Virus record (IMG/VR): IMGVR_UViG_3300013413_000001
Location: 1-40,280 of that record
DNA from: a virus
DNA length: 40,280 bases
Reading direction: 5' to 3' (one strand)
Under the pieces are notes generated by a model. It made no database searches. It was not told the origin of the DNA and worked only from the letters and a program-made list of their open reading frames with translations. Of this stretch, positions 36,148-40,197 are shown one piece after another. Position 1 is the stretch's first letter. Every line of letters begins with the position of its first letter. The position numbers and the translations under genes were made by a program.

Positions 36148-36624
36148 ATGGATACGCCTTGCATCATCTGGCCGAACTGCAAAGACAAGTTCGGCTATGG
36201 ACAAGTCAGGCACAAAGGGAAGATGGTTAAGGCGCATCGTCTTGCGTACTGCCGCCATCACGGCTTGGACATCCATGCGCTTAATGGTCTCGTGATCCGC
36301 CATAAGTGCGACAACACAAGCTGCGTCAATCCAGAACATCTGGAGACTGGAACCAATGACCAGAACATGGCCGATATGGTGAAGCGCGGCAGATCCCCAT
36401 GCGGGGAGCGAAATGCTCAGGCCAAACTAACGGCTGCTCAGGTTTTGGAGATCGTGGCGACGTACGTCCATGGCAGCAAAGAATTCGGAGCACGCGCACT
36501 TGCCGAGAAACACGGCGTAGTGCCAGCCTCGATTACGGAAATCATGACTGGGAAGAAATGGAAGTCTGTCACCGCTGGAATATTGAGCCAGCGCGAGCGG
36601 CAACAGGAGGCGGATCGTGGCTAA
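36148..36624 (+). CDS. HNH endonuclease
   Basis: VKAHRLAY...IRHKCDNTSCVNPEHLETGTNDQNMAD is a classic HNH core. AAGGAG SD. Confidence 0.8.
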   Translation: MDTPCIIWPNCKDKFGYGQVRHKGKMVKAHRLAYCRHHGLDIHALNGLVIRHKCDNTSCVNPEHLETGTNDQNMADMVKRGRSPCGERNAQAKLTAAQVLEIVATYVHGSKEFGARALAEKHGVVPASITEIMTGKKWKSVTAGILSQRERQQEADRG

Positions 36625-36856
36625 GAAAGACGCCGACATTCTGCGAAACGTTGCGCACCATCTCAATGCAGCCGAGGACGCTCTTGCGAATGCGGTGGCG
36701 GAGTTTGGACCGCGTGCCGGTGGCCTTCGCTATTTCCTTGGATCGGTTGCAGACTACAAGAAGATGGTCGGTACGATGCTGCGCGTCCGATATATCAAGA
36801 GTCGAATTTCTCGTGCAGTGGCGCGCACCGAATCGGAGGGCGGGAACAATGGCTGA
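36617..36856 (+). CDS. Hypothetical protein (79 aa)
   Basis: GTG start with an AGGAGG SD. It overlaps the HNH stop. Confidence 0.45.
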   Translation: MAKKDADILRNVAHHLNAAEDALANAVAEFGPRAGGLRYFLGSVADYKKMVGTMLRVRYIKSRISRAVARTESEGGNNG

Positions 36857-37214
36857 GAATCTGAATGCATCGGCAATCGCCGACGCACTGGAAGCAGAAT
36901 ATCTGGCCGTCGCAAATGGGCAGAAGAAGCCCGGGAAGATAGATCTTGAAGCGATGGTGCGAGCTGTGCAGATTATCCGAGAACTGGAGCGCGCCAGCCA
37001 GCCTGGTGGCGGGGAGGTACTCAGCGGATATGTGGCCGTACCTGCGGAGCCGACCGAGCAATGGTGCAAGCGGCTTTCCGAGAAAAGCTACGGCACCGGT
37101 TACGTTAGCGACAAGGCACGGCTCAAGTTCTGCGAGAACGTCATCCGCGATGTTCTCTCTACTGCGCCTCAGGTAGACGCAGCCCGCGCCGCGCTGGCCG
37201 GAAGGGAGGGGTGA
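36849..37214 (+). CDS. Hypothetical protein (121 aa)
   Basis: Internal ATG (MAENLNAS) overlapping the upstream stop by 8 nt. Confidence 0.5.
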   Translation: MAENLNASAIADALEAEYLAVANGQKKPGKIDLEAMVRAVQIIRELERASQPGGGEVLSGYVAVPAEPTEQWCKRLSEKSYGTGYVSDKARLKFCENVIRDVLSTAPQVDAARAALAGREG

Positions 37215-38455
37215 TGCGATACCTATCCGTTTGTTCCGGAATCGAAGCCGCGAGCTGCGCCTGGCACCCGATGGGATGGAGCTCGTTCGCCTTCAGTGAG
37301 GTGGATCGGTTTCCGTCCGAAGTTCTAGCGCACCACTACCCGACCGTGCCCAACCTGGGCGACATGACCAAGTTCAAGGACTGGCCCGATGCAACTATCG
37401 ATCTTCTCGTCGGAGGAACACCTTGCCAATCCTTCAGCGTCGCGGGACTTCGAAAGGGACTGGCTGATCCGCGTGGCAACCTCATGCTCACCTATCTTGC
37501 CATTGCTGAGCGCTACGCTCCCAAGTGGCTGGTTTGGGAAAACGTCCCCGGTGTCCTGTCTTCAAACCAAGGACGGGATTTTGGCACCTTGCTCGGGGGG
37601 CTGGCAGAACTCGGGTATGGGTTCGCCTACCGCGTTCTTGACGCTCAATACGTCCGAGTGGAATCACACTCTCGCGCCGTCCCTCAGCGACGTCGGCGTG
37701 TGTTCGTTGTTGGACATCTTGGAGACTGGCGACGTGCCGCCGCAGTACTTTTTGAGCGCGAGAGCATGCTCGGGCATCCTGCGCCGCGCCGCCAAGCGGG
37801 GGAAGCAGTTGCCGGATGCCTTAGCCCGGGCGCTCATCCAGGTGGCTTCAATGGACAGGACGCATACGAAAACAAGTTGATACCCGAAATTGCTCGCGCG
37901 CTGACGACCAGCAACCAGAGAATTGATGCGGAGACGGAGACGTTGCTCGTTGCGCATTCCCTACGCGCTGAAGGCTTTGACGCCAGTGAGGACGGCACGG
38001 GCCGCGGGACGCCGCTGATTCCTGTGCCGTTCGACACCACGCAGATCACTAGCAAGGCTAATTACAGCAATCCGCGCCCTGGTGATCCGTGCCATCCGCT
38101 GGCGGCTGGAGCTCATGCTCCAGCCATCGCCTTCGACTGCAAGTCAAGCGGCCAGAACGGTTTCGCTATCGGCGATATTGCTGGCACGCAGCGCGCGATG
38201 GGCCATGCGAACAGCCATACGAACGGCGGCGGTCACCAAGCTGTGGCCTATGGCAGCGCAGTGCGCCGTCTCACACCTCGCGAGTGCGAACGTCTGCAGG
38301 GCTTCCCTGATGACTACACCGCCATCCTGCGTGCATGCAAAGGCGCAAAAGATGGCCCGCGCTACAAAGCGCTTGGCAACAGCATGGCAGTCAACGTAAT
38401 GCGATGGATCGGCTCGCGCATCGATGACGTGAGCCAGTTACCGATAGCCGCCTAA
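37214..38455 (+). CDS. dcm: DNA (cytosine-5)-methyltransferase
   Basis: Motif I is SVCSGIE, motif IV PCQSFSVAG, motif VI ENVPG, motif VIII QRRRRVFVV, then RRLTPRECERLQGFPDDYT and motif X GNSMAVNV. The start could also be GTG at 37211. Confidence 0.9.
   Translation: MRYLSVCSGIEAASCAWHPMGWSSFAFSEVDRFPSEVLAHHYPTVPNLGDMTKFKDWPDATIDLLVGGTPCQSFSVAGLRKGLADPRGNLMLTYLAIAERYAPKWLVWENVPGVLSSNQGRDFGTLLGGLAELGYGFAYRVLDAQYVRVESHSRAVPQRRRRVFVVGHLGDWRRAAAVLFERESMLGHPAPRRQAGEAVAGCLSPGAHPGGFNGQDAYENKLIPEIARALTTSNQRIDAETETLLVAHSLRAEGFDASEDGTGRGTPLIPVPFDTTQITSKANYSNPRPGDPCHPLAAGAHAPAIAFDCKSSGQNGFAIGDIAGTQRAMGHANSHTNGGGHQAVAYGSAVRRLTPRECERLQGFPDDYTAILRACKGAKDGPRYKALGNSMAVNVMRWIGSRIDDVSQLPIAA
37389..37880 (+). 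CDS. 163-codon ORF fully embedded in dcm in the +1 frame (candidate overlapping gene)
   Basis: ATG is preceded by AAGGA at an 8-nt spacing. A hand count over 37680-37880 gives third-position GC of about 80 percent in this frame and about 52 percent in the dcm frame. The peptide contains CSLLDILETGDVPPQYFLSARACSGILRRAAKRGKQLP. Confidence 0.4.
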   Translation: MQLSIFSSEEHLANPSASRDFERDWLIRVATSCSPILPLLSATLPSGWFGKTSPVSCLQTKDGILAPCSGGWQNSGMGSPTAFLTLNTSEWNHTLAPSLSDVGVCSLLDILETGDVPPQYFLSARACSGILRRAAKRGKQLPDALARALIQVASMDRTHTKTS

Positions 38456-38854: not shown

Positions 38855-38917
38855 TGCAAGCAGCAGCACAACGAGTGATCGAATTGACCCGCCGTCTGTG
38901 GCGGATTGGAGAGTCGG

Positions 38918-39112
38918 ATGAAAGTCAGCCTTGAGAAATGGGGAGCCAGGAACTATGATCCCGCTCCGCACATCGACACCCTCCGCGGCTGGGCGCGCGA
39001 CGGCAAAATCTACCCGCCGCCGCAGAAGGTGGGTCGCGCCTATTATGTGGACGAGCACGCGGTATTCAGCGCCGATGCTCGTCCCCGTCTCATCCATAGG
39101 ATCGCCGCATAA
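38918..39112 (+). CDS. xis: Excisionase (lambda Xis-like)
   Basis: SLEKWGARNY...IDTLRGWARDGKIYPPPQKVGRAYYVDEHAV parallels the lambda Xis N-terminal fold. It lies immediately upstream of, and overlaps, the int start. Confidence 0.7.
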   Translation: MKVSLEKWGARNYDPAPHIDTLRGWARDGKIYPPPQKVGRAYYVDEHAVFSADARPRLIHRIAA

Positions 39113-40197
39113 TGGCTGCACGCCCAAGGATCAAGAAGCGAGCCGACTGGCCGGCACACCTGCGCGAGCCACGGCCCGGCTATTACACGTGGGTTCACCC
39201 GGTTACCGGCAAGAGCTTCACGCTGGGACGTATTCCGCTGGCGCAGGCCATCTTTGAGGCGCATGAGGCCAACGCCTCCATTGCATCGCAGGCCACCCCA
39301 AAGAAGCTGGCAGAGCGCATCCAAGAGGGCGGCGAAACGGTTGCGGACCTGATCGCCAAGATGCCGACTGAAGGCATCGCGCACAGTACGGTACTGACGC
39401 GCCGGTCATTGGACAAGCGCATCCTCGCGGCCTTCGGTAGTCTCAAATGCACAGAAGTAGAGACGCGGCATGTTGCCAAGCTGATCGAGGACATCGAGAA
39501 GGAGGGGAAGGCGCGGACGGCGCAGGCCATGCGCAGCCACCTGACGAAACTATTTACGAAGGGGATGGCGCTAGGCTGGATGAACCAGAACCCGGCACTG
39601 GTGACCGAGGCTGTCAAGGTCAAGGTTGCGCGCGAGCGGCTGACGCTGGAACAGTTCCAGGCCATCCGCGCCAAGGCTGGTGAGGTATCCGACTGGCTGG
39701 AGAACGCCATGCTGCTGGCACTCGTCAGCGGGCAGGACCGGTCAACCATCGTCGCATGGGAGCGATCCACAATCGGCAAGGACGTGATCGTGGCGAGCCG
39801 CAGCAAGACGGGCGTCAAGATCGCCATTCCGCTGGACATCCGACTCGATGCCATTGGCCTGTCGCTGCGGGATGTGGTGGCGCGCTGCAAGGGAACCGGC
39901 GTGGTGAGCCGCTTTCTGGTGCACCACGTCAAGCAATGGCGCGGCACGAAGCGCGGTGATCCGGTCCACTATGACACGCTGTCGAACAAGTTCGCGGAGG
40001 CCCGGGCCCTGGCAAAGATCCCCGGTGAGAACCCGCCTACGTTCCACGAGATACGCAGTCTGGCGAAGCGGCTATACGAGGCGCAGGGGAACGTCGACAC
40101 CAAGGCGTTGCTTGGTCACAAGACGCAGAAGATGGCGGATCTGTACGCCGATGCGCGCGGGATTGAGCCGATCAAAGTACGCATTGCGGCGCGGTAA
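39112..40197 (+). CDS. int: Tyrosine integrase (lambda Int family)
   Basis: It has an N-terminal arm-binding-like region and a C-terminal HEIRSLAKRLY...LLGHKTQKMADLYAD, giving the HxxR, H and Y catalytic pattern. Confidence 0.9.
   Translation: MAARPRIKKRADWPAHLREPRPGYYTWVHPVTGKSFTLGRIPLAQAIFEAHEANASIASQATPKKLAERIQEGGETVADLIAKMPTEGIAHSTVLTRRSLDKRILAAFGSLKCTEVETRHVAKLIEDIEKEGKARTAQAMRSHLTKLFTKGMALGWMNQNPALVTEAVKVKVARERLTLEQFQAIRAKAGEVSDWLENAMLLALVSGQDRSTIVAWERSTIGKDVIVASRSKTGVKIAIPLDIRLDAIGLSLRDVVARCKGTGVVSRFLVHHVKQWRGTKRGDPVHYDTLSNKFAEARALAKIPGENPPTFHEIRSLAKRLYEAQGNVDTKALLGHKTQKMADLYADARGIEPIKVRIAAR

What the first reader, a model, noticed from the sequence alone, without database searches (positions are those of the whole stretch)
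37389..37880. A 163-codon ORF embedded in the cytosine methyltransferase gene looks more coding than the host frame
The dcm frame is unambiguous, with the PCQ, ENV and QRRRRVF motifs and GNSMAVNV. An ATG-initiated ORF in the +1 frame nevertheless runs for 492 nt entirely inside it.

Seen:
- It has an AAGGA Shine-Dalgarno 8 nt upstream of its ATG.
- By my hand count over 37680-37880, about 80 percent of its third codon positions are G/C, against about 52 percent for the dcm frame over the same bases.
- Downstream of the overlap the dcm frame returns to roughly two-thirds G/C at third positions.
- The product is not low-complexity: ...SGWFGKTSPVSCLQTKDGILAPCSGGWQNSGMGSPTAFLTLNTSEWNHTLAPSLSDVGVCSLLDILETGDVPPQYFLSARACSGILRRAAKRGKQLPDALARAL.

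Inference:
- The ILE...YFLS...ILRRA segment resembles the start of target-recognition regions seen in other C5 methyltransferases.
- The same nucleotides encode motif VIII in the dcm frame.
- Possible explanations are a genuine overprinted gene, a frameshift-generated alternative isoform, or a relic of a different ancestral reading frame.
Basis: partly seen in the sequence, partly recalled or inferred. Interest (0 to 1): 0.7.

Follow-up and report, generated by a model that had tools for sequence, protein, structure and literature searches.

The report
Conserved hidden gene inside phage methyltransferase
A 163-codon reading frame hidden inside a prophage DNA cytosine methyltransferase gene is very probably a real second gene, kept open and under selection in this methyltransferase subfamily across phages of many bacterial phyla (including coliphage P1), yet it is almost never annotated and its function is unknown.

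Summary
ORF 37389-37880 (ATG, AAGGA 8 nt upstream) lies in the +1 frame of C5-methyltransferase gene 37211-38455.

It is not chance:
- Only 1-2% of synonymous recodings of dcm keep it open.
- It is open in all 80 viral loci fetched with dcm alone as bait, and in 80 genome copies from at least 10 phyla, every one inside a dcm frame.
- It is also open in P1 dmt, mycobacteriophage Omega and low-GC Streptococcus and Bacillus phages.
- Canonical C5-MTase genes (SPbeta-type, Klebsiella phiKp_4) have a stop-filled +1 frame.
- dcm-synonymous divergence drops 3-4 fold in the overlap (dSN 0.45 versus 1.46 and 1.83).
- +1-frame dN/dS is 0.63 overall and 0.40 in the C-terminal half.
- After motif VIII the +1 frame is better conserved than the methylase frame (46% versus 31% identity).
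- The C-terminal ~50 residues fold confidently (pLDDT 90-98) into a helical domain with no PDB relative.

Function is inferred only. Several lineages extend the product with methyltransferase TRD modules, which suggests a methylase partner, as in M.EcoHK31I alpha/beta. There is no expression evidence.

The parts
37211..38455 (+). Host gene: phage-type DNA (cytosine-5) methyltransferase, 414 codons, all motifs I-X in one frame
   Evidence: Pfam PF00145 at 3.5e-50; TIGR00675; M.HhaI at 3e-22 in two blocks, residues 2-169 and 340-404
37376..37380 (+). Shine-Dalgarno-like AAGGA, 8 nt upstream of the nested ORF's ATG. It is encoded by the Lys-Asp codons of dcm.
   Evidence: Sequence. An AGGA/GGAG-type element is retained upstream of the start in most of the 68 non-redundant homologues, by inspection, and in P1, TC7, Pan4, Javan102 and Javan6
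37389..37880 (+). Nested +1-frame gene: 163 codons plus stop
   Evidence: Open in 80/80 dcm-baited viral loci and 80/80 genome loci. Shuffle P(open) 0.009-0.024. dSN 0.45 against 1.46 and 1.83; dNN/dNS 0.63. 903 close hits and 4968 representative hits
37389..37706 (+). N-terminal and middle part of the product (residues 1-106). It overlaps dcm motifs IV and VI and the start of VIII. It is less constrained and only partly structured, with helices 19-31 and 36-43.
   Evidence: pLDDT about 50-79. dNN/dNS is 1.09 for the N-terminal half of the overlap (dcm codons 61-140), but dSN/dSS is 0.30. In distant phages the ORF starts only just before motif VI
37707..37862 (+). Conserved C-terminal helical domain of the product (residues 107-158, LLDILETGDVPPQYFLSARACSGILRRAAKRGKQLPDALARALIQVA). 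It overlaps the end of dcm motif VIII and the 'GDWRRAAAVLFERES...' stretch.
   Evidence: pLDDT 75-98 with helices 107-113, 124-137 and 143-158. dNN/dNS 0.40 for the C-terminal half of the overlap (dcm codons 141-221), 95% interval 0.29-0.53. In distant lineages +1-frame identity is 0.46 against 0.31 for the dcm frame, and +1 is better in 41 of 45 pairs
37421..37429 (+). dcm motif IV catalytic PCQ, read as 'LAN' in the nested frame
   Evidence: Sequence
37538..37546 (+). dcm motif VI ENV. 'WLVWENVPGVLS' reads as 'GWFGKTSPVSC' in +1.
   Evidence: Sequence
37685..37705 (+). dcm motif VIII QRRRRVF, read as 'SDVGVCS' in +1
   Evidence: Sequence
37798..37802 (+). G5 run inside the KRGK codons of the nested ORF, near where the frames are joined in some relatives (L092). 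Its significance is unknown.
   Evidence: Sequence; L092 junction near 'GILRRAA|RQRV'

Best explanation
37389-37880 is a genuine second protein-coding gene, nested in the +1 frame of a phage-type C5-cytosine methyltransferase gene.

**Shown**
- The frame is kept open, with its own start codon and ribosome-binding site, in this whole methyltransferase subfamily.
- The subfamily spans phages and prophages of Proteobacteria, Acidobacteria, Actinobacteria, Firmicutes, Cyanobacteria and other phyla, and includes coliphage P1 dmt.
- The shared nucleotides evolve under double constraint.
- For about 50 codons after motif VIII, the nested frame is the better conserved of the two.

**Inferred: how it is made**
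- It is translated from the dcm mRNA by independent initiation at the internal SD/ATG.
- The product is a ~160-residue protein. Its conserved functional core is a basic C-terminal three-helix domain (...LSDILE..VPxRYFLSxKACxGILRRAEKRGKxLPxxLxxAL), preceded by a flexible, less conserved N-terminal part.

**Inferred, about 40% probability: what it does**
- It works together with the methyltransferase that hosts it, as an accessory or second subunit involved in DNA or target handling.
- The nested arrangement would guarantee co-inheritance and co-expression, as in M.EcoHK31I alpha/beta or lambda Rz/Rz1.
For: **Openness**
- Window P(open | dcm protein) is 0.009-0.024.
- There are no internal +1 stops over the homologous 150-165 codons in 80/80 viral loci fetched with dcm as bait (dcm identity 58-87%). 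The same stretch has 3-10 stops in +2, and the +1 frame has normal stop density up- and downstream.
- A codon-shuffle null expects 4 of 67 non-redundant homologues to be open; all 67 are.
- Distant genes:

| Gene | Open +1 codons | P(open) |
|---|---|---|
| P1 dmt | 163 | 0.007 |
| Javan102 (GC 0.39) | 135 | 0.001 |
| BhaS-171 | 208 | 0.0002 |

- Javan6, CcrBL9, Omega, TC7, CobraSix, DMCA and Pan4 are also open.
- Negative controls: the SPbeta-type and Klebsiella phiKp_4 C5-MTases have the +1 frame full of stops.

**Start signals**
- ATG lies at the homologous site in 55 of 68 homologues; most of the rest have ATG or TTG within a few codons (two have none nearby).
- An AGGA/GGAG element lies upstream.

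**Selection**
- Diversity at dcm position 3 is 0.32 in the overlap, against 0.51 upstream and 0.59-0.63 downstream.
- dSN is 0.45, against 1.46 and 1.83.
- +1 dNN/dNS is 0.63 (0.51-0.77), and 0.40 in the C-terminal half. Control regions give 0.96 and 0.89, and the +2 frame gives 1.58.
- After motif VIII the +1 frame is more conserved than frame 0 in 41 of 45 distant pairs.

**Coding potential**
- Gene callers pick the +1 ORF over the dcm 5' half.
- 4968 cluster representatives match at E <= 1e-3.
- PHROG 16143 matches 36 of 40 members.
- Thibault gp104 is annotated.

**Fold**
- The C-terminal domain has pLDDT 90-98.

**Link to the methylase**
- All 160 copies examined sit inside a dcm frame.
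- At least 6 of 150 diverse representatives, plus P0024 and P0057, carry an N-terminal extension in the nested frame that matches MTase variable-region (TRD) modules. The best cases are 55% over 44 aa (E 3e-11) and 66% over 44 aa (E 3e-15). These extensions are created by insertions that read as nonsense in the dcm frame.
- Precedent: M.EcoHK31I beta is encoded in another frame inside alpha (PMC2836561; PMC3404938).
Against: - There is no expression evidence of any kind: no peptides, ribosome footprints or genetics.
- The N-terminal half shows no amino-acid-level purifying signal by dNN/dNS (1.09). Part of its conservation is forced by dcm motifs IV and VI.
- The middle of the model is low confidence.
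- Some lineages (Omega, DMCA, Lelie) lack an obvious Shine-Dalgarno or start.
- The product matches no Pfam, NCBIfam, PADLOC or PDB entry, so the function is pure inference.
- The host dcm already has all ten motifs including IX and X, so no missing part is evident for the nested protein to supply.
- C-terminal fusions to motifs IX-X (6 of 150) are matched by a similar number of dcm-N-terminus-to-ORF chimeras (5 of 150). Both may be plain frameshift mutants or assembly errors.
- In L002 and L124 the methylase frame is broken while the nested ORF is intact. If real, that would fit a methylase-independent role.
Confidence: 0.8

Rival explanations
1. It is a genuine nested gene, but its function is independent of methylation, for example a regulator, an anti-defence factor or another early phage function. 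It arose by overprinting on a conveniently conserved gene, and the overlap is only genome economy.
For: - The product has no detectable similarity to any methyltransferase part.
- The host dcm has all motifs I-X.
- L002 (8 contigs) and L124 (a complete genome) keep the nested ORF intact although the methylase frame is broken downstream.
- The basic helical C-terminus could bind nucleic acid on its own.
Against: - It was never found outside a dcm frame in 160 loci.
- Recurrent extensions with methyltransferase TRD modules occur in the nested frame.
- No PADLOC match.
- The breaks in L002 and L124 lie at G-runs and may be sequencing errors.
Confidence: 0.3
2. It is not an independent gene. The +1 stretch is reached by ribosomal frameshifting or transcriptional slippage from the dcm frame, giving an alternative methylase isoform: the dcm N-terminus fused to the +1 sequence, or the +1 sequence fused to the TRD and motifs IX-X.
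For: - Database proteins exist in which the dcm N-terminus continues in frame into the +1 sequence (5 of 150), or the +1 sequence continues into motifs IX-X (6 of 150; P0146 is on 19 contigs).
- G-runs lie near the junctions.
Against: - A start codon and Shine-Dalgarno are conserved at the head of the ORF.
- The ORF's stop position is conserved.
- In the window, a shift into +1 would end at 37880 without motifs IX and X. 'SLLDILE' physically overlaps motif VIII, so no single shift can keep both.
- No conserved slippery site was looked for or seen.
- The fusion forms are rare: 0 of 80 in the dcm-baited sample.
Confidence: 0.06
3. It is a decaying relic. An ancestral two-frame, M.AquI-like split methylase had its second subunit start in the +1 frame. 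After the frames were fused, the N-terminal stump of that subunit remained open by inertia.
For: - Two-frame methylases exist in related phages. Steamy gp77/gp76 overlap in +1, Rani gp51 is annotated as an 'internal gene' in +1, and Rabbitrun has a similar +1 stretch.
- Their +1 leaders look vaguely similar to the ORF's N-terminus.
Against: - Inertia cannot keep 150+ codons open across phyla and in 39-41% GC genomes.
- There is clear purifying selection on the C-terminal half, and it is better conserved than the host frame.
- The similarity to the two-frame methylase subunits is not significant: E 0.6 to more than 1.
Confidence: 0.04
4. There is no selection on the +1 frame. Its openness and apparent conservation are by-products of the strongly conserved dcm protein sequence and GC-rich codon usage.
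For: - Motifs IV, VI and VIII force parts of the +1 sequence.
- ORF-frame GC3 is fully explained by the dcm amino-acid sequence.
- In high-GC relatives P(open) per gene can reach 0.1-0.4.
Against: - Shuffles that preserve the protein and codon usage expect 4 of 67 open, and 67 are observed.
- Low-GC phages give P = 0.0002-0.001.
- Synonymous sites of dcm are 3-4 fold suppressed only inside the overlap.
- Canonical C5-MTases with the same motifs have a closed +1 frame.
- The +1 frame is more conserved than the dcm frame after motif VIII.
Confidence: 0.02

Closest known systems
M.EcoHK31I alpha/beta (C5-MTase whose beta polypeptide is encoded in another reading frame entirely inside the alpha gene)
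   Same: A second ORF lies wholly nested, on the same strand and out of frame, inside a C5-cytosine methyltransferase gene. In EcoHK31I both products are needed for activity (PMC2836561; PMC3404938).
   Different: - EcoHK31I beta supplies conserved motif IX, which alpha lacks. Here the host frame has its own motifs IX and X, and the nested product has no PF00145 similarity.
- The overlap here covers catalytic motifs IV-VIII rather than the region that holds beta.
- The product is a different, much larger family, spread over many phyla.
- A requirement for activity has not been tested.
M.AquI-type split C5-MTases (alpha = motifs I-VIII, beta = distal variable region plus IX-X)
   Same: Relatives of the window gene exist in which motifs I-VIII and TRD/IX/X are in different frames or ORFs: L092 with P0146, L124, Omega gp127/gp128 and Steamy gp77/gp76. 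In L092 the nested ORF's frame continues into TRD/IX/X.
   Different: In the window the methylase is a single chain with motifs I-X, and the nested ORF stops 58 codons after the start of motif VIII without any MTase motif. The AquI subunit composition is taken from PMC3404938.
Nested same-strand genes of dsDNA and ssDNA phages (lambda Rz1 inside Rz in the +1 frame; phiX174 B in A and E in D). This entry rests on general knowledge and was not checked here.
   Same: An embedded out-of-frame gene has its own start signals. In Rz/Rz1 the two products act together.
   Different: Those overlaps are short or lineage-restricted. This one spans ~160 codons across the catalytic core of an enzyme and is conserved across phages of several bacterial phyla.
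PHROG 16143 ('DNA methyltransferase', 139 positions), with thousands of metagenomic 'hypothetical proteins' and Mycobacterium phage Thibault gp104
   Same: These are the same protein family as the nested product: 36 of 40 aligned members hit PHROG 16143 down to 1e-11, and Thibault gp104 is the best BFVD match.
   Different: The label 'DNA methyltransferase' appears to come from the locus, not from any similarity to methyltransferases. The out-of-frame, nested nature is not recorded. The window ORF itself scores only E = 0.018.
'Internal gene' gp51 inside methylase gp50 of Paenibacillus phage Rani, and overlapping methylase gene pairs of mycobacteriophages (e.g. Steamy gp77/gp76)
   Same: A +1-frame ORF starts inside the N-terminal catalytic half of a phage C5-MTase gene (offsets 202 and 352 nt, both 1 mod 3). 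The leader has a similar flavour: '..QLTLFP..LAN.S..PGSE..'.
   Different: Those +1 products continue into 'LPTPxAxD' modules and a motif-IX-like 'EWMMGFPxGWT', so they are the second half of the methylase. Their relationship to the window's product is not statistically supported (E 0.58 to more than 1 at Z = 1e6).

Membership tests
Nested (same-strand, out-of-frame) protein-coding overlapping gene | The alternative frame stays open in homologues far beyond chance | tested here: met
   80/80 viral and 80/80 genome loci are open. The shuffle null expects 4 of 67. Low-GC phages give P 0.0002-0.001. Canonical MTase controls are closed.
Nested (same-strand, out-of-frame) protein-coding overlapping gene | Own translation start signals are conserved | tested here: met
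   ATG at the homologous site in 55 of 68; most of the rest have ATG or TTG within a few codons (two have none nearby). AGGA/GGAG lies 5-12 nt upstream in most. Exceptions are Omega, DMCA and Lelie.
Nested (same-strand, out-of-frame) protein-coding overlapping gene | Purifying selection acts on the alternative frame, and synonymous rate is suppressed in the host frame | tested here: met
   dSN 0.45 against 1.46 and 1.83. dNN/dNS 0.63, and 0.40 in the C-terminal half, against 0.89-0.96 in controls. +2 frame 1.58. The +1 frame is more conserved than frame 0 after motif VIII. The N-terminal half alone gives dNN/dNS 1.09.
Nested (same-strand, out-of-frame) protein-coding overlapping gene | The product is detected (peptides or ribosome footprints), or there is a phenotype | not testable with these tools
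   No expression data are available, and no paper was found.
M.EcoHK31I-type two-polypeptide C5-MTase | The second polypeptide is encoded out of frame inside the methylase gene | tested here: met
   the definition comes from PMC2836561.
M.EcoHK31I-type two-polypeptide C5-MTase | The small polypeptide carries a conserved MTase motif (IX) that the large one lacks | tested here: not met
   The host frame has RRLTPRECERLQGFPDDY (IX) and GNSMAVNV (X) and aligns to M.HhaI 263-318. The nested product has no PF00145 match.
M.EcoHK31I-type two-polypeptide C5-MTase | Both polypeptides are required for methylation | not testable with these tools
   This needs genetics or biochemistry.
M.AquI-type split C5-MTase | Motifs I-VIII and IX-X lie on separate polypeptides | tested here: not met
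   The window dcm is one 414-codon ORF with motifs I-X. The feature is met only in some relatives, such as L092, L124 and Omega.
C5-cytosine DNA methyltransferase (PF00145), host gene only | Motifs I, IV (PCQ), VI (ENV), VIII (QxRxR), IX and X in canonical order | tested here: met
   PF00145 3.5e-50 over residues 2-404, TIGR00675 4.5e-48, M.HhaI 3e-22.
Canonical TRD-start segment of C5-MTases ('L.DILE...KYYLS') as homologue of the nested product's C-terminus | Significant sequence or structural similarity to that in-frame segment | tested here: inconclusive
   There is no PF00145 or PDB match. The SPbeta-type in-frame 'REILEEYVDEKYYLSEE' aligns to the 'LSDILE..YFLS' block at about 12 bits, E about 8 at Z = 1e6. 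Only a motif-level resemblance is seen.
PHROG 16143 | Match to the family profile | tested here: met
   36 of 40 aligned relatives match, best 1e-11. The window protein itself scores only E = 0.018.
Programmed ribosomal frameshift product | A conserved slippery site with a stimulator, and a trans-frame product | not tested
   No slippery-site analysis was done. A conserved own ATG and Shine-Dalgarno argue for independent initiation.

The most novel reading that the evidence does not exclude
A large subfamily of phage 'orphan' C5-cytosine methyltransferases, including P1 Dmt and at least 141 deposited phage genomes and thousands of metagenomic ones, may in fact be two-component systems. The second component would be a ~130-165-residue protein encoded out of frame across the catalytic motifs (IV/VI-VIII) of the enzyme itself. 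This dual-coding arrangement would be old enough to be shared by phages of Proteobacteria, Firmicutes, Actinobacteria and Cyanobacteria. The hidden frame is the more conserved of the two for about 50 codons. The hidden protein would act in trans on the methylase or its DNA target, for example as a specificity or loading subunit that can itself acquire TRD modules.
Probability: 0.35. Interest if true: 0.88.

Novelty: new variant of a known kind. Interest (0 to 1): 0.78.

Why it matters
**If the nested frame is translated**
- It is one of the longest and most widely conserved same-strand overlapping genes in dsDNA phages.
- It sits across the catalytic core of an enzyme, which is an extreme case of two proteins co-evolving on one stretch of DNA.
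- It has been missed by annotation even in the model phage P1.

**Practical consequences**
- Gene callers currently either drop it or, worse, call it and truncate the methyltransferase. That corrupts annotations of thousands of phage genomes.

**Biological consequences**
- If the product is a partner of the methylase, phage anti-restriction methylation by this family cannot be understood, or reconstituted, from the annotated enzyme alone.
- The hypothesis is directly testable with one silent point mutation in a tractable phage such as P1, or in a Burkholderiaceae prophage.

Tried and rejected
- **GC3 as evidence of coding: rejected.** ORF position 3 is dcm position 1 and is fixed by the dcm protein.
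- **Family scans of the product.** Pfam, NCBIfam and PADLOC gave nothing except a chance-level Chor_lyase hit (E 0.026).
- **PDB by sequence and by fold.** Nothing. BFVD returned only family members.
- **First AF2 run with a shallow alignment.** Uninformative, pLDDT 48. The deeper alignment was needed.
- **Homology of the C-terminal block to the canonical in-frame TRD-start segment.** Not demonstrable.
- **Homology to the +1 'internal' or second-subunit genes of Paenibacillus and actinophage methylases.** Not significant even after one profile iteration.
- **C-terminal fusions to motifs IX-X as 'Rosetta-stone' evidence: down-weighted.** Equally many dcm-N-terminus-to-ORF chimeras exist, as expected from plain frameshifts.
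- **Search for a free-standing copy outside dcm.** None in 160 loci.
- **Internal promoter or terminator.** Nothing above chance. The terminator-like hairpin at 37727-37742 is within the shuffle expectation.
- **Literature.** Five searches for the overlap or the peptide motifs found no description. Subscription journals are not covered, so prior description cannot be excluded.
- **Antisense ORFs in the region** (e.g. 37664-37957 on the minus strand). Not pursued; they are typical of GC-rich DNA.
Full report
**1. The observation**

The ORF exists as described: 37389..37880 on the + strand, ATG start, 163 codons plus TGA, with AAGGA at 37376-37380, 8 nt upstream. It lies entirely inside a 414-codon ORF (37211..38455). 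That ORF is an unambiguous C5-cytosine methyltransferase: Pfam PF00145 at 3.5e-50, TIGR00675 at 4.5e-48, and M.HhaI at 3e-22 in two blocks covering motifs I-VIII and IX-X. The nested frame is dcm +1, so its third codon position is the first position of dcm codons.

Over 37680-37880, third-position GC is 0.79 in the ORF frame and 0.52 in the dcm frame. dcm GC3 is 0.78 upstream and 0.66 downstream of the overlap.

The locus is the integrase-proximal end of a prophage: HNH endonuclease at 36148-36624, dcm, a PHROG-5086 protein, an excisionase at 38906-39112 and an integrase at 39112-40197. The closest genomic relatives are in Pandoraea and Paraburkholderia.

**2. Is it more than chance?**

The GC3 contrast is not evidence. 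Shuffling synonymous codons of dcm reproduces the ORF-frame 'GC3' exactly (0.738 against 0.733 +/- 0.006), because it is fixed by the dcm protein. Shuffling does not reproduce the depressed dcm GC3 inside the overlap: 0.549 against 0.628 +/- 0.029, P = 0.003.

The absence of stops is evidence. Given the dcm protein and its codon usage, 3.1-3.6 +1 stops are expected over the 163 codons, and only 0.9-2.4% of recodings keep the frame open.

**3. Conservation in an unbiased sample**

To avoid ascertainment bias I fetched 80 viral loci with the dcm protein as bait.
- In all of them (dcm identity 58-87%) the +1 frame has no internal stop across the homologous 150-165 codons.
- The same nucleotides carry 3-10 stops in the +2 frame.
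- The +1 frame has 1-5 stops in the 58 codons upstream and 2-10 in the ~200 codons downstream.
- Across 67 non-redundant homologues the protein-preserving shuffle null predicts about 4 open ORFs; all 67 are open.
- ATG sits at the homologous position in 55 of 68; most of the rest have ATG or TTG within a few codons (two have none nearby). It is preceded by AGGA or GGAG, which is encoded by the Lys/Gln/Glu-Asp/Glu codons of dcm.

**4. Selection**

On a codon alignment of 69 sequences (below 95% nucleotide identity):
- Diversity at dcm third positions is 0.32 in the overlap, against 0.51 upstream and 0.59-0.63 downstream.
- An OLGenie-style two-frame count was made (my own implementation, with codon bootstrap). 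The distance for changes that are synonymous in dcm but non-synonymous in the ORF is 0.45 in the overlap, against 1.46 and 1.83 in the flanks.
- +1-frame dNN/dNS is 0.63 (0.51-0.77), and 0.40 (0.29-0.53) in the C-terminal half. The same frame gives 0.96 and 0.89 in control regions, and the +2 frame gives 1.58.
- The N-terminal half gives dNN/dNS of 1.09, although dSN/dSS is 0.30 on few sites. Its amino-acid constraint is therefore not demonstrated, and part of its conservation is forced by motifs IV and VI ('WLVWENVPGVLS' reads as 'GWFGKTSPVSC').

**5. Breadth**

- The 163-aa product has 903 close relatives in the 5.8-billion-protein set, mostly 150-170-aa 'hypothetical proteins'.
- A profile finds 4968 cluster representatives, of which 3263 are at E <= 1e-10.
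- In their contigs, gene callers chose the +1 ORF and then called only a truncated C-terminal methylase, although the full dcm frame is open.
- A genome scan found at least 545 copies in Pseudomonadota, Acidobacteriota, Planctomycetota, Verrucomicrobiota, Nitrospirota, Actinomycetota, Chloroflexota and others. All 80 fetched copies lie inside an open dcm frame with motifs IV, VI and VIII; none is free-standing.
- Among deposited phages, tblastn finds the product in 141 records. In the rows listed it lies almost always under a methylase gene or an unnamed ORF. It is in the +1 frame of the annotated CDS in all nine tested: P1 dmt, CobraSix, Javan102, Lelie, BhaS-171, Omega gp127, TC7, DMCA and Pan4.
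- P1 dmt has a 163-codon stop-free +1 stretch where that frame otherwise has 3.2 stops per 100 codons.
- Streptococcus phage Javan102 (GC 0.39) has 135 open codons against 6.1 stops per 100 elsewhere.
- Shuffle probabilities are 0.007 for P1, 0.001 for Javan102 and 0.0002 for BhaS-171.
- A profile of the product hits only the +1-frame segments of these loci: P1 7e-31, Javan102 3e-23, Javan6 6.5e-16, CcrBL9 1e-7, scaled to 1e6 sequences.
- In these distant members the ORF starts just before motif VI rather than before motif IV. The universally conserved part is the C-terminal block '..SEWPxDxxVCSLSxxLE...PxRYFLSxKACxGILRRAEKRGKxLPxxLxxAL'.

**6. Negative control and subfamily limits**

1650 phage records have a homologous C5-MTase N-terminal domain, but only 141 have the product. 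Canonical enzymes (SPbeta-type, GC 0.35; Klebsiella phiKp_4) have the +1 frame full of stops over motifs VI-VIII. Openness is therefore not a generic consequence of the shared motifs.

**7. Which frame dominates?**

I compared the 49 codons following motif VIII among 10 distant lineages (45 pairs). The +1 frame is better conserved than the methylase frame. Mean identity is 0.46 against 0.31, mean BLOSUM score is 94 against 37, and +1 is better in 41 of 45 pairs. The 'GDWRRAAAVLFERES' signature of this methylase subfamily may thus largely be the shadow of 'ILETGDVPQRYFLSAKAC' in the other frame.

**8. The product**

- With a 111-sequence alignment, AlphaFold2 gives mean pLDDT 70.5.
- Residues ~111-160 reach 75-98, with helices 107-113, 124-137 and 143-158.
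- Two N-terminal helices reach about 79, and the middle stays uncertain. A shallow alignment had given pLDDT 48.
- Foldseek finds nothing in the PDB. In BFVD the best match is the 81-aa Thibault gp104, an annotated member of the same family.
- There is no Pfam, NCBIfam, PADLOC or PDB sequence match. PHROG 16143, labelled 'DNA methyltransferase', is this family.

**9. Hints to function**

(a) The ORF is never separated from the methylase gene.

(b) In several lineages an insertion sits in dcm between 'EWPDA' and motif IV. It reads as Cys-rich nonsense in the dcm frame. In the nested frame it reads as an N-terminal extension that significantly matches variable-region (TRD) modules of methylases read in their own frame.
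- P0024 against L052 residues 275-317: 55% over 44 aa, E 3e-11.
- P0131 against L048: 66% over 44 aa, E 3e-15.
- In L091 the extension copies the gene's own downstream TRD.
- In total 6 of 150 diverse representatives, plus P0024 and P0057, show this.

These insertions are coherent only if the +1 frame is the one being read. They also tie the product to DNA-recognition modules.

(c) Forms exist in which the nested frame continues into TRD and motifs IX-X (6 of 150; P0146 is on 19 contigs). I down-weight these, because dcm-N-terminus-to-ORF chimeras are equally frequent (5 of 150), as expected from plain frameshifts.

(d) Conversely, L002 and L124 keep the ORF intact while the methylase frame is broken at G-runs. 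If real, that would fit an independent role.

**10. Comparison with what is known**

- The nearest precedent is M.EcoHK31I, whose beta chain is encoded entirely in another frame inside the alpha gene and supplies motif IX (PMC2836561; PMC3404938).
- M.AquI is the other natural two-polypeptide C5-MTase.
- The present case shares the architecture of a nested out-of-frame ORF in a C5-MTase gene. It fails the defining feature of EcoHK31I, because the host enzyme has its own motifs IX and X and the nested product carries no methylase motif.
- Some phage annotators have recorded +1 'internal' or overlapping genes in other C5-MTases: Rani gp51, and Steamy gp77/gp76. Those products continue into 'LPTPxAxD' modules and a motif-IX-like element. 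Their relationship to this ORF is not statistically supported.
It remains a motif-level resemblance at about 12 bits.
- I found no paper describing this nested gene. The searchable library omits most subscription journals.

**11. Verdict**

- The 'genuine overprinted gene' reading is strongly supported by comparative evidence. My confidence that it is a selected, protein-coding nested gene is about 0.8. The missing piece is any direct expression evidence.
- A role as partner of the host methylase is the best functional guess (about 0.4), and an unrelated function comes next (about 0.3).
- I class it as a new variant of a known kind: nested genes in phages, and nested second polypeptides in C5-MTase genes. 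It is unusual for its length, its position across catalytic motifs, its phylogenetic breadth, and the fact that the hidden frame is locally the better conserved one.

Noticed in passing
L092 2811-4029 (JGI Ga0613822_004306; protein P0146, seen on 19 contigs): The methylase frame carries motifs I-VIII and then decays into nonsense after 'LFERESL'. The TRD and motifs IX-X continue in the nested ORF's frame, giving a 342-aa [nested-ORF core]-[TRD-IX-X] protein. This is either a split, AquI-like enzyme or a frameshift mutant.
   Followed up: partly
L090 1115-1888 and L091 966-1676 (proteins P0057, P0024; also P0125, P0128, P0130, P0131, P0149, P0179): Insertions of about 70-90 codons sit in dcm just before motif IV. 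They stay open in both frames. They read as Cys-rich nonsense in the dcm frame and as methyltransferase TRD modules in the +1 frame, extending the nested protein N-terminally. In L091 the insert copies the gene's own downstream TRD.
   Followed up: partly
L002 3643-5005 and L124 1820-3344 (Acidobacteriaceae bacterium ZG23-2, CP085323.1): The methylase reading frame is broken at a Gly/G-run in the variable region, while the nested ORF upstream is intact. This could be sequencing error, a pseudogene or phase variation.
   Followed up: no
L088 (Mycobacterium phage Omega) 1653-2957; L179 (phage Thibault) 620-2421: Omega's methylase is annotated as gp127 and gp128, in the same frame and separated by a stop codon. 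In Thibault the methylase frame has a ~270-codon insertion right after motif VIII, which carries an HNH endonuclease gene (gp103) in another frame. It looks like an intron or a mobile insertion that interrupts both overlapping frames at one point.
   Followed up: partly
L187 (Paenibacillus phage Rani) 586-1656 with 788-1492; L185 (Mycobacterium phage Steamy) 601-1134 with 953-1612; L186 (Gordonia phage Rabbitrun) 641-1219: This is a second kind of +1-frame ORF inside phage C5-MTase genes. It is annotated as 'g50 Internal gene' in Rani and as overlapping methylase genes in many mycobacteriophages. It encodes 'LPTPxAxD' repeats and a motif-IX-like 'EWMMGFPxGWT'. In Rani the annotated frame after motif VIII looks like nonsense. 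Two-frame C5-MTases may be common in phages.
   Followed up: partly
L094 (phage P1, NC_005856.1 about 66728..67201): The model phage P1 carries a 157-codon version of the nested ORF inside dmt. It starts MQLTTNG... and has GGAG 7 nt upstream. It is not annotated in the heavily curated reference record.
   Followed up: partly
window 36399-37214: A 271-codon ORF ends at the dcm start (overlap GTGATG). It has no PHROG match and overlaps the 3' end of the HNH endonuclease gene (36148-36624). Its true start is probably much further downstream.
   Followed up: no
window 37727-37742: A terminator-like hairpin followed by a T-run lies inside the overlap. The count is within shuffle expectation, so it is probably meaningless.
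   Followed up: no
L089 (Pseudomonas phage TC7) about 1262 and window 37389: The nested ORF's N-terminus 'MQLT/MQLS' arises from similar dcm codons ('IDAIDL' in TC7, 'PDATIDLL' in the window), although these lie at different places in the methylase: after motif IV in TC7 and before it in the window. This may be convergence or an internal shift of the start.
   Followed up: no
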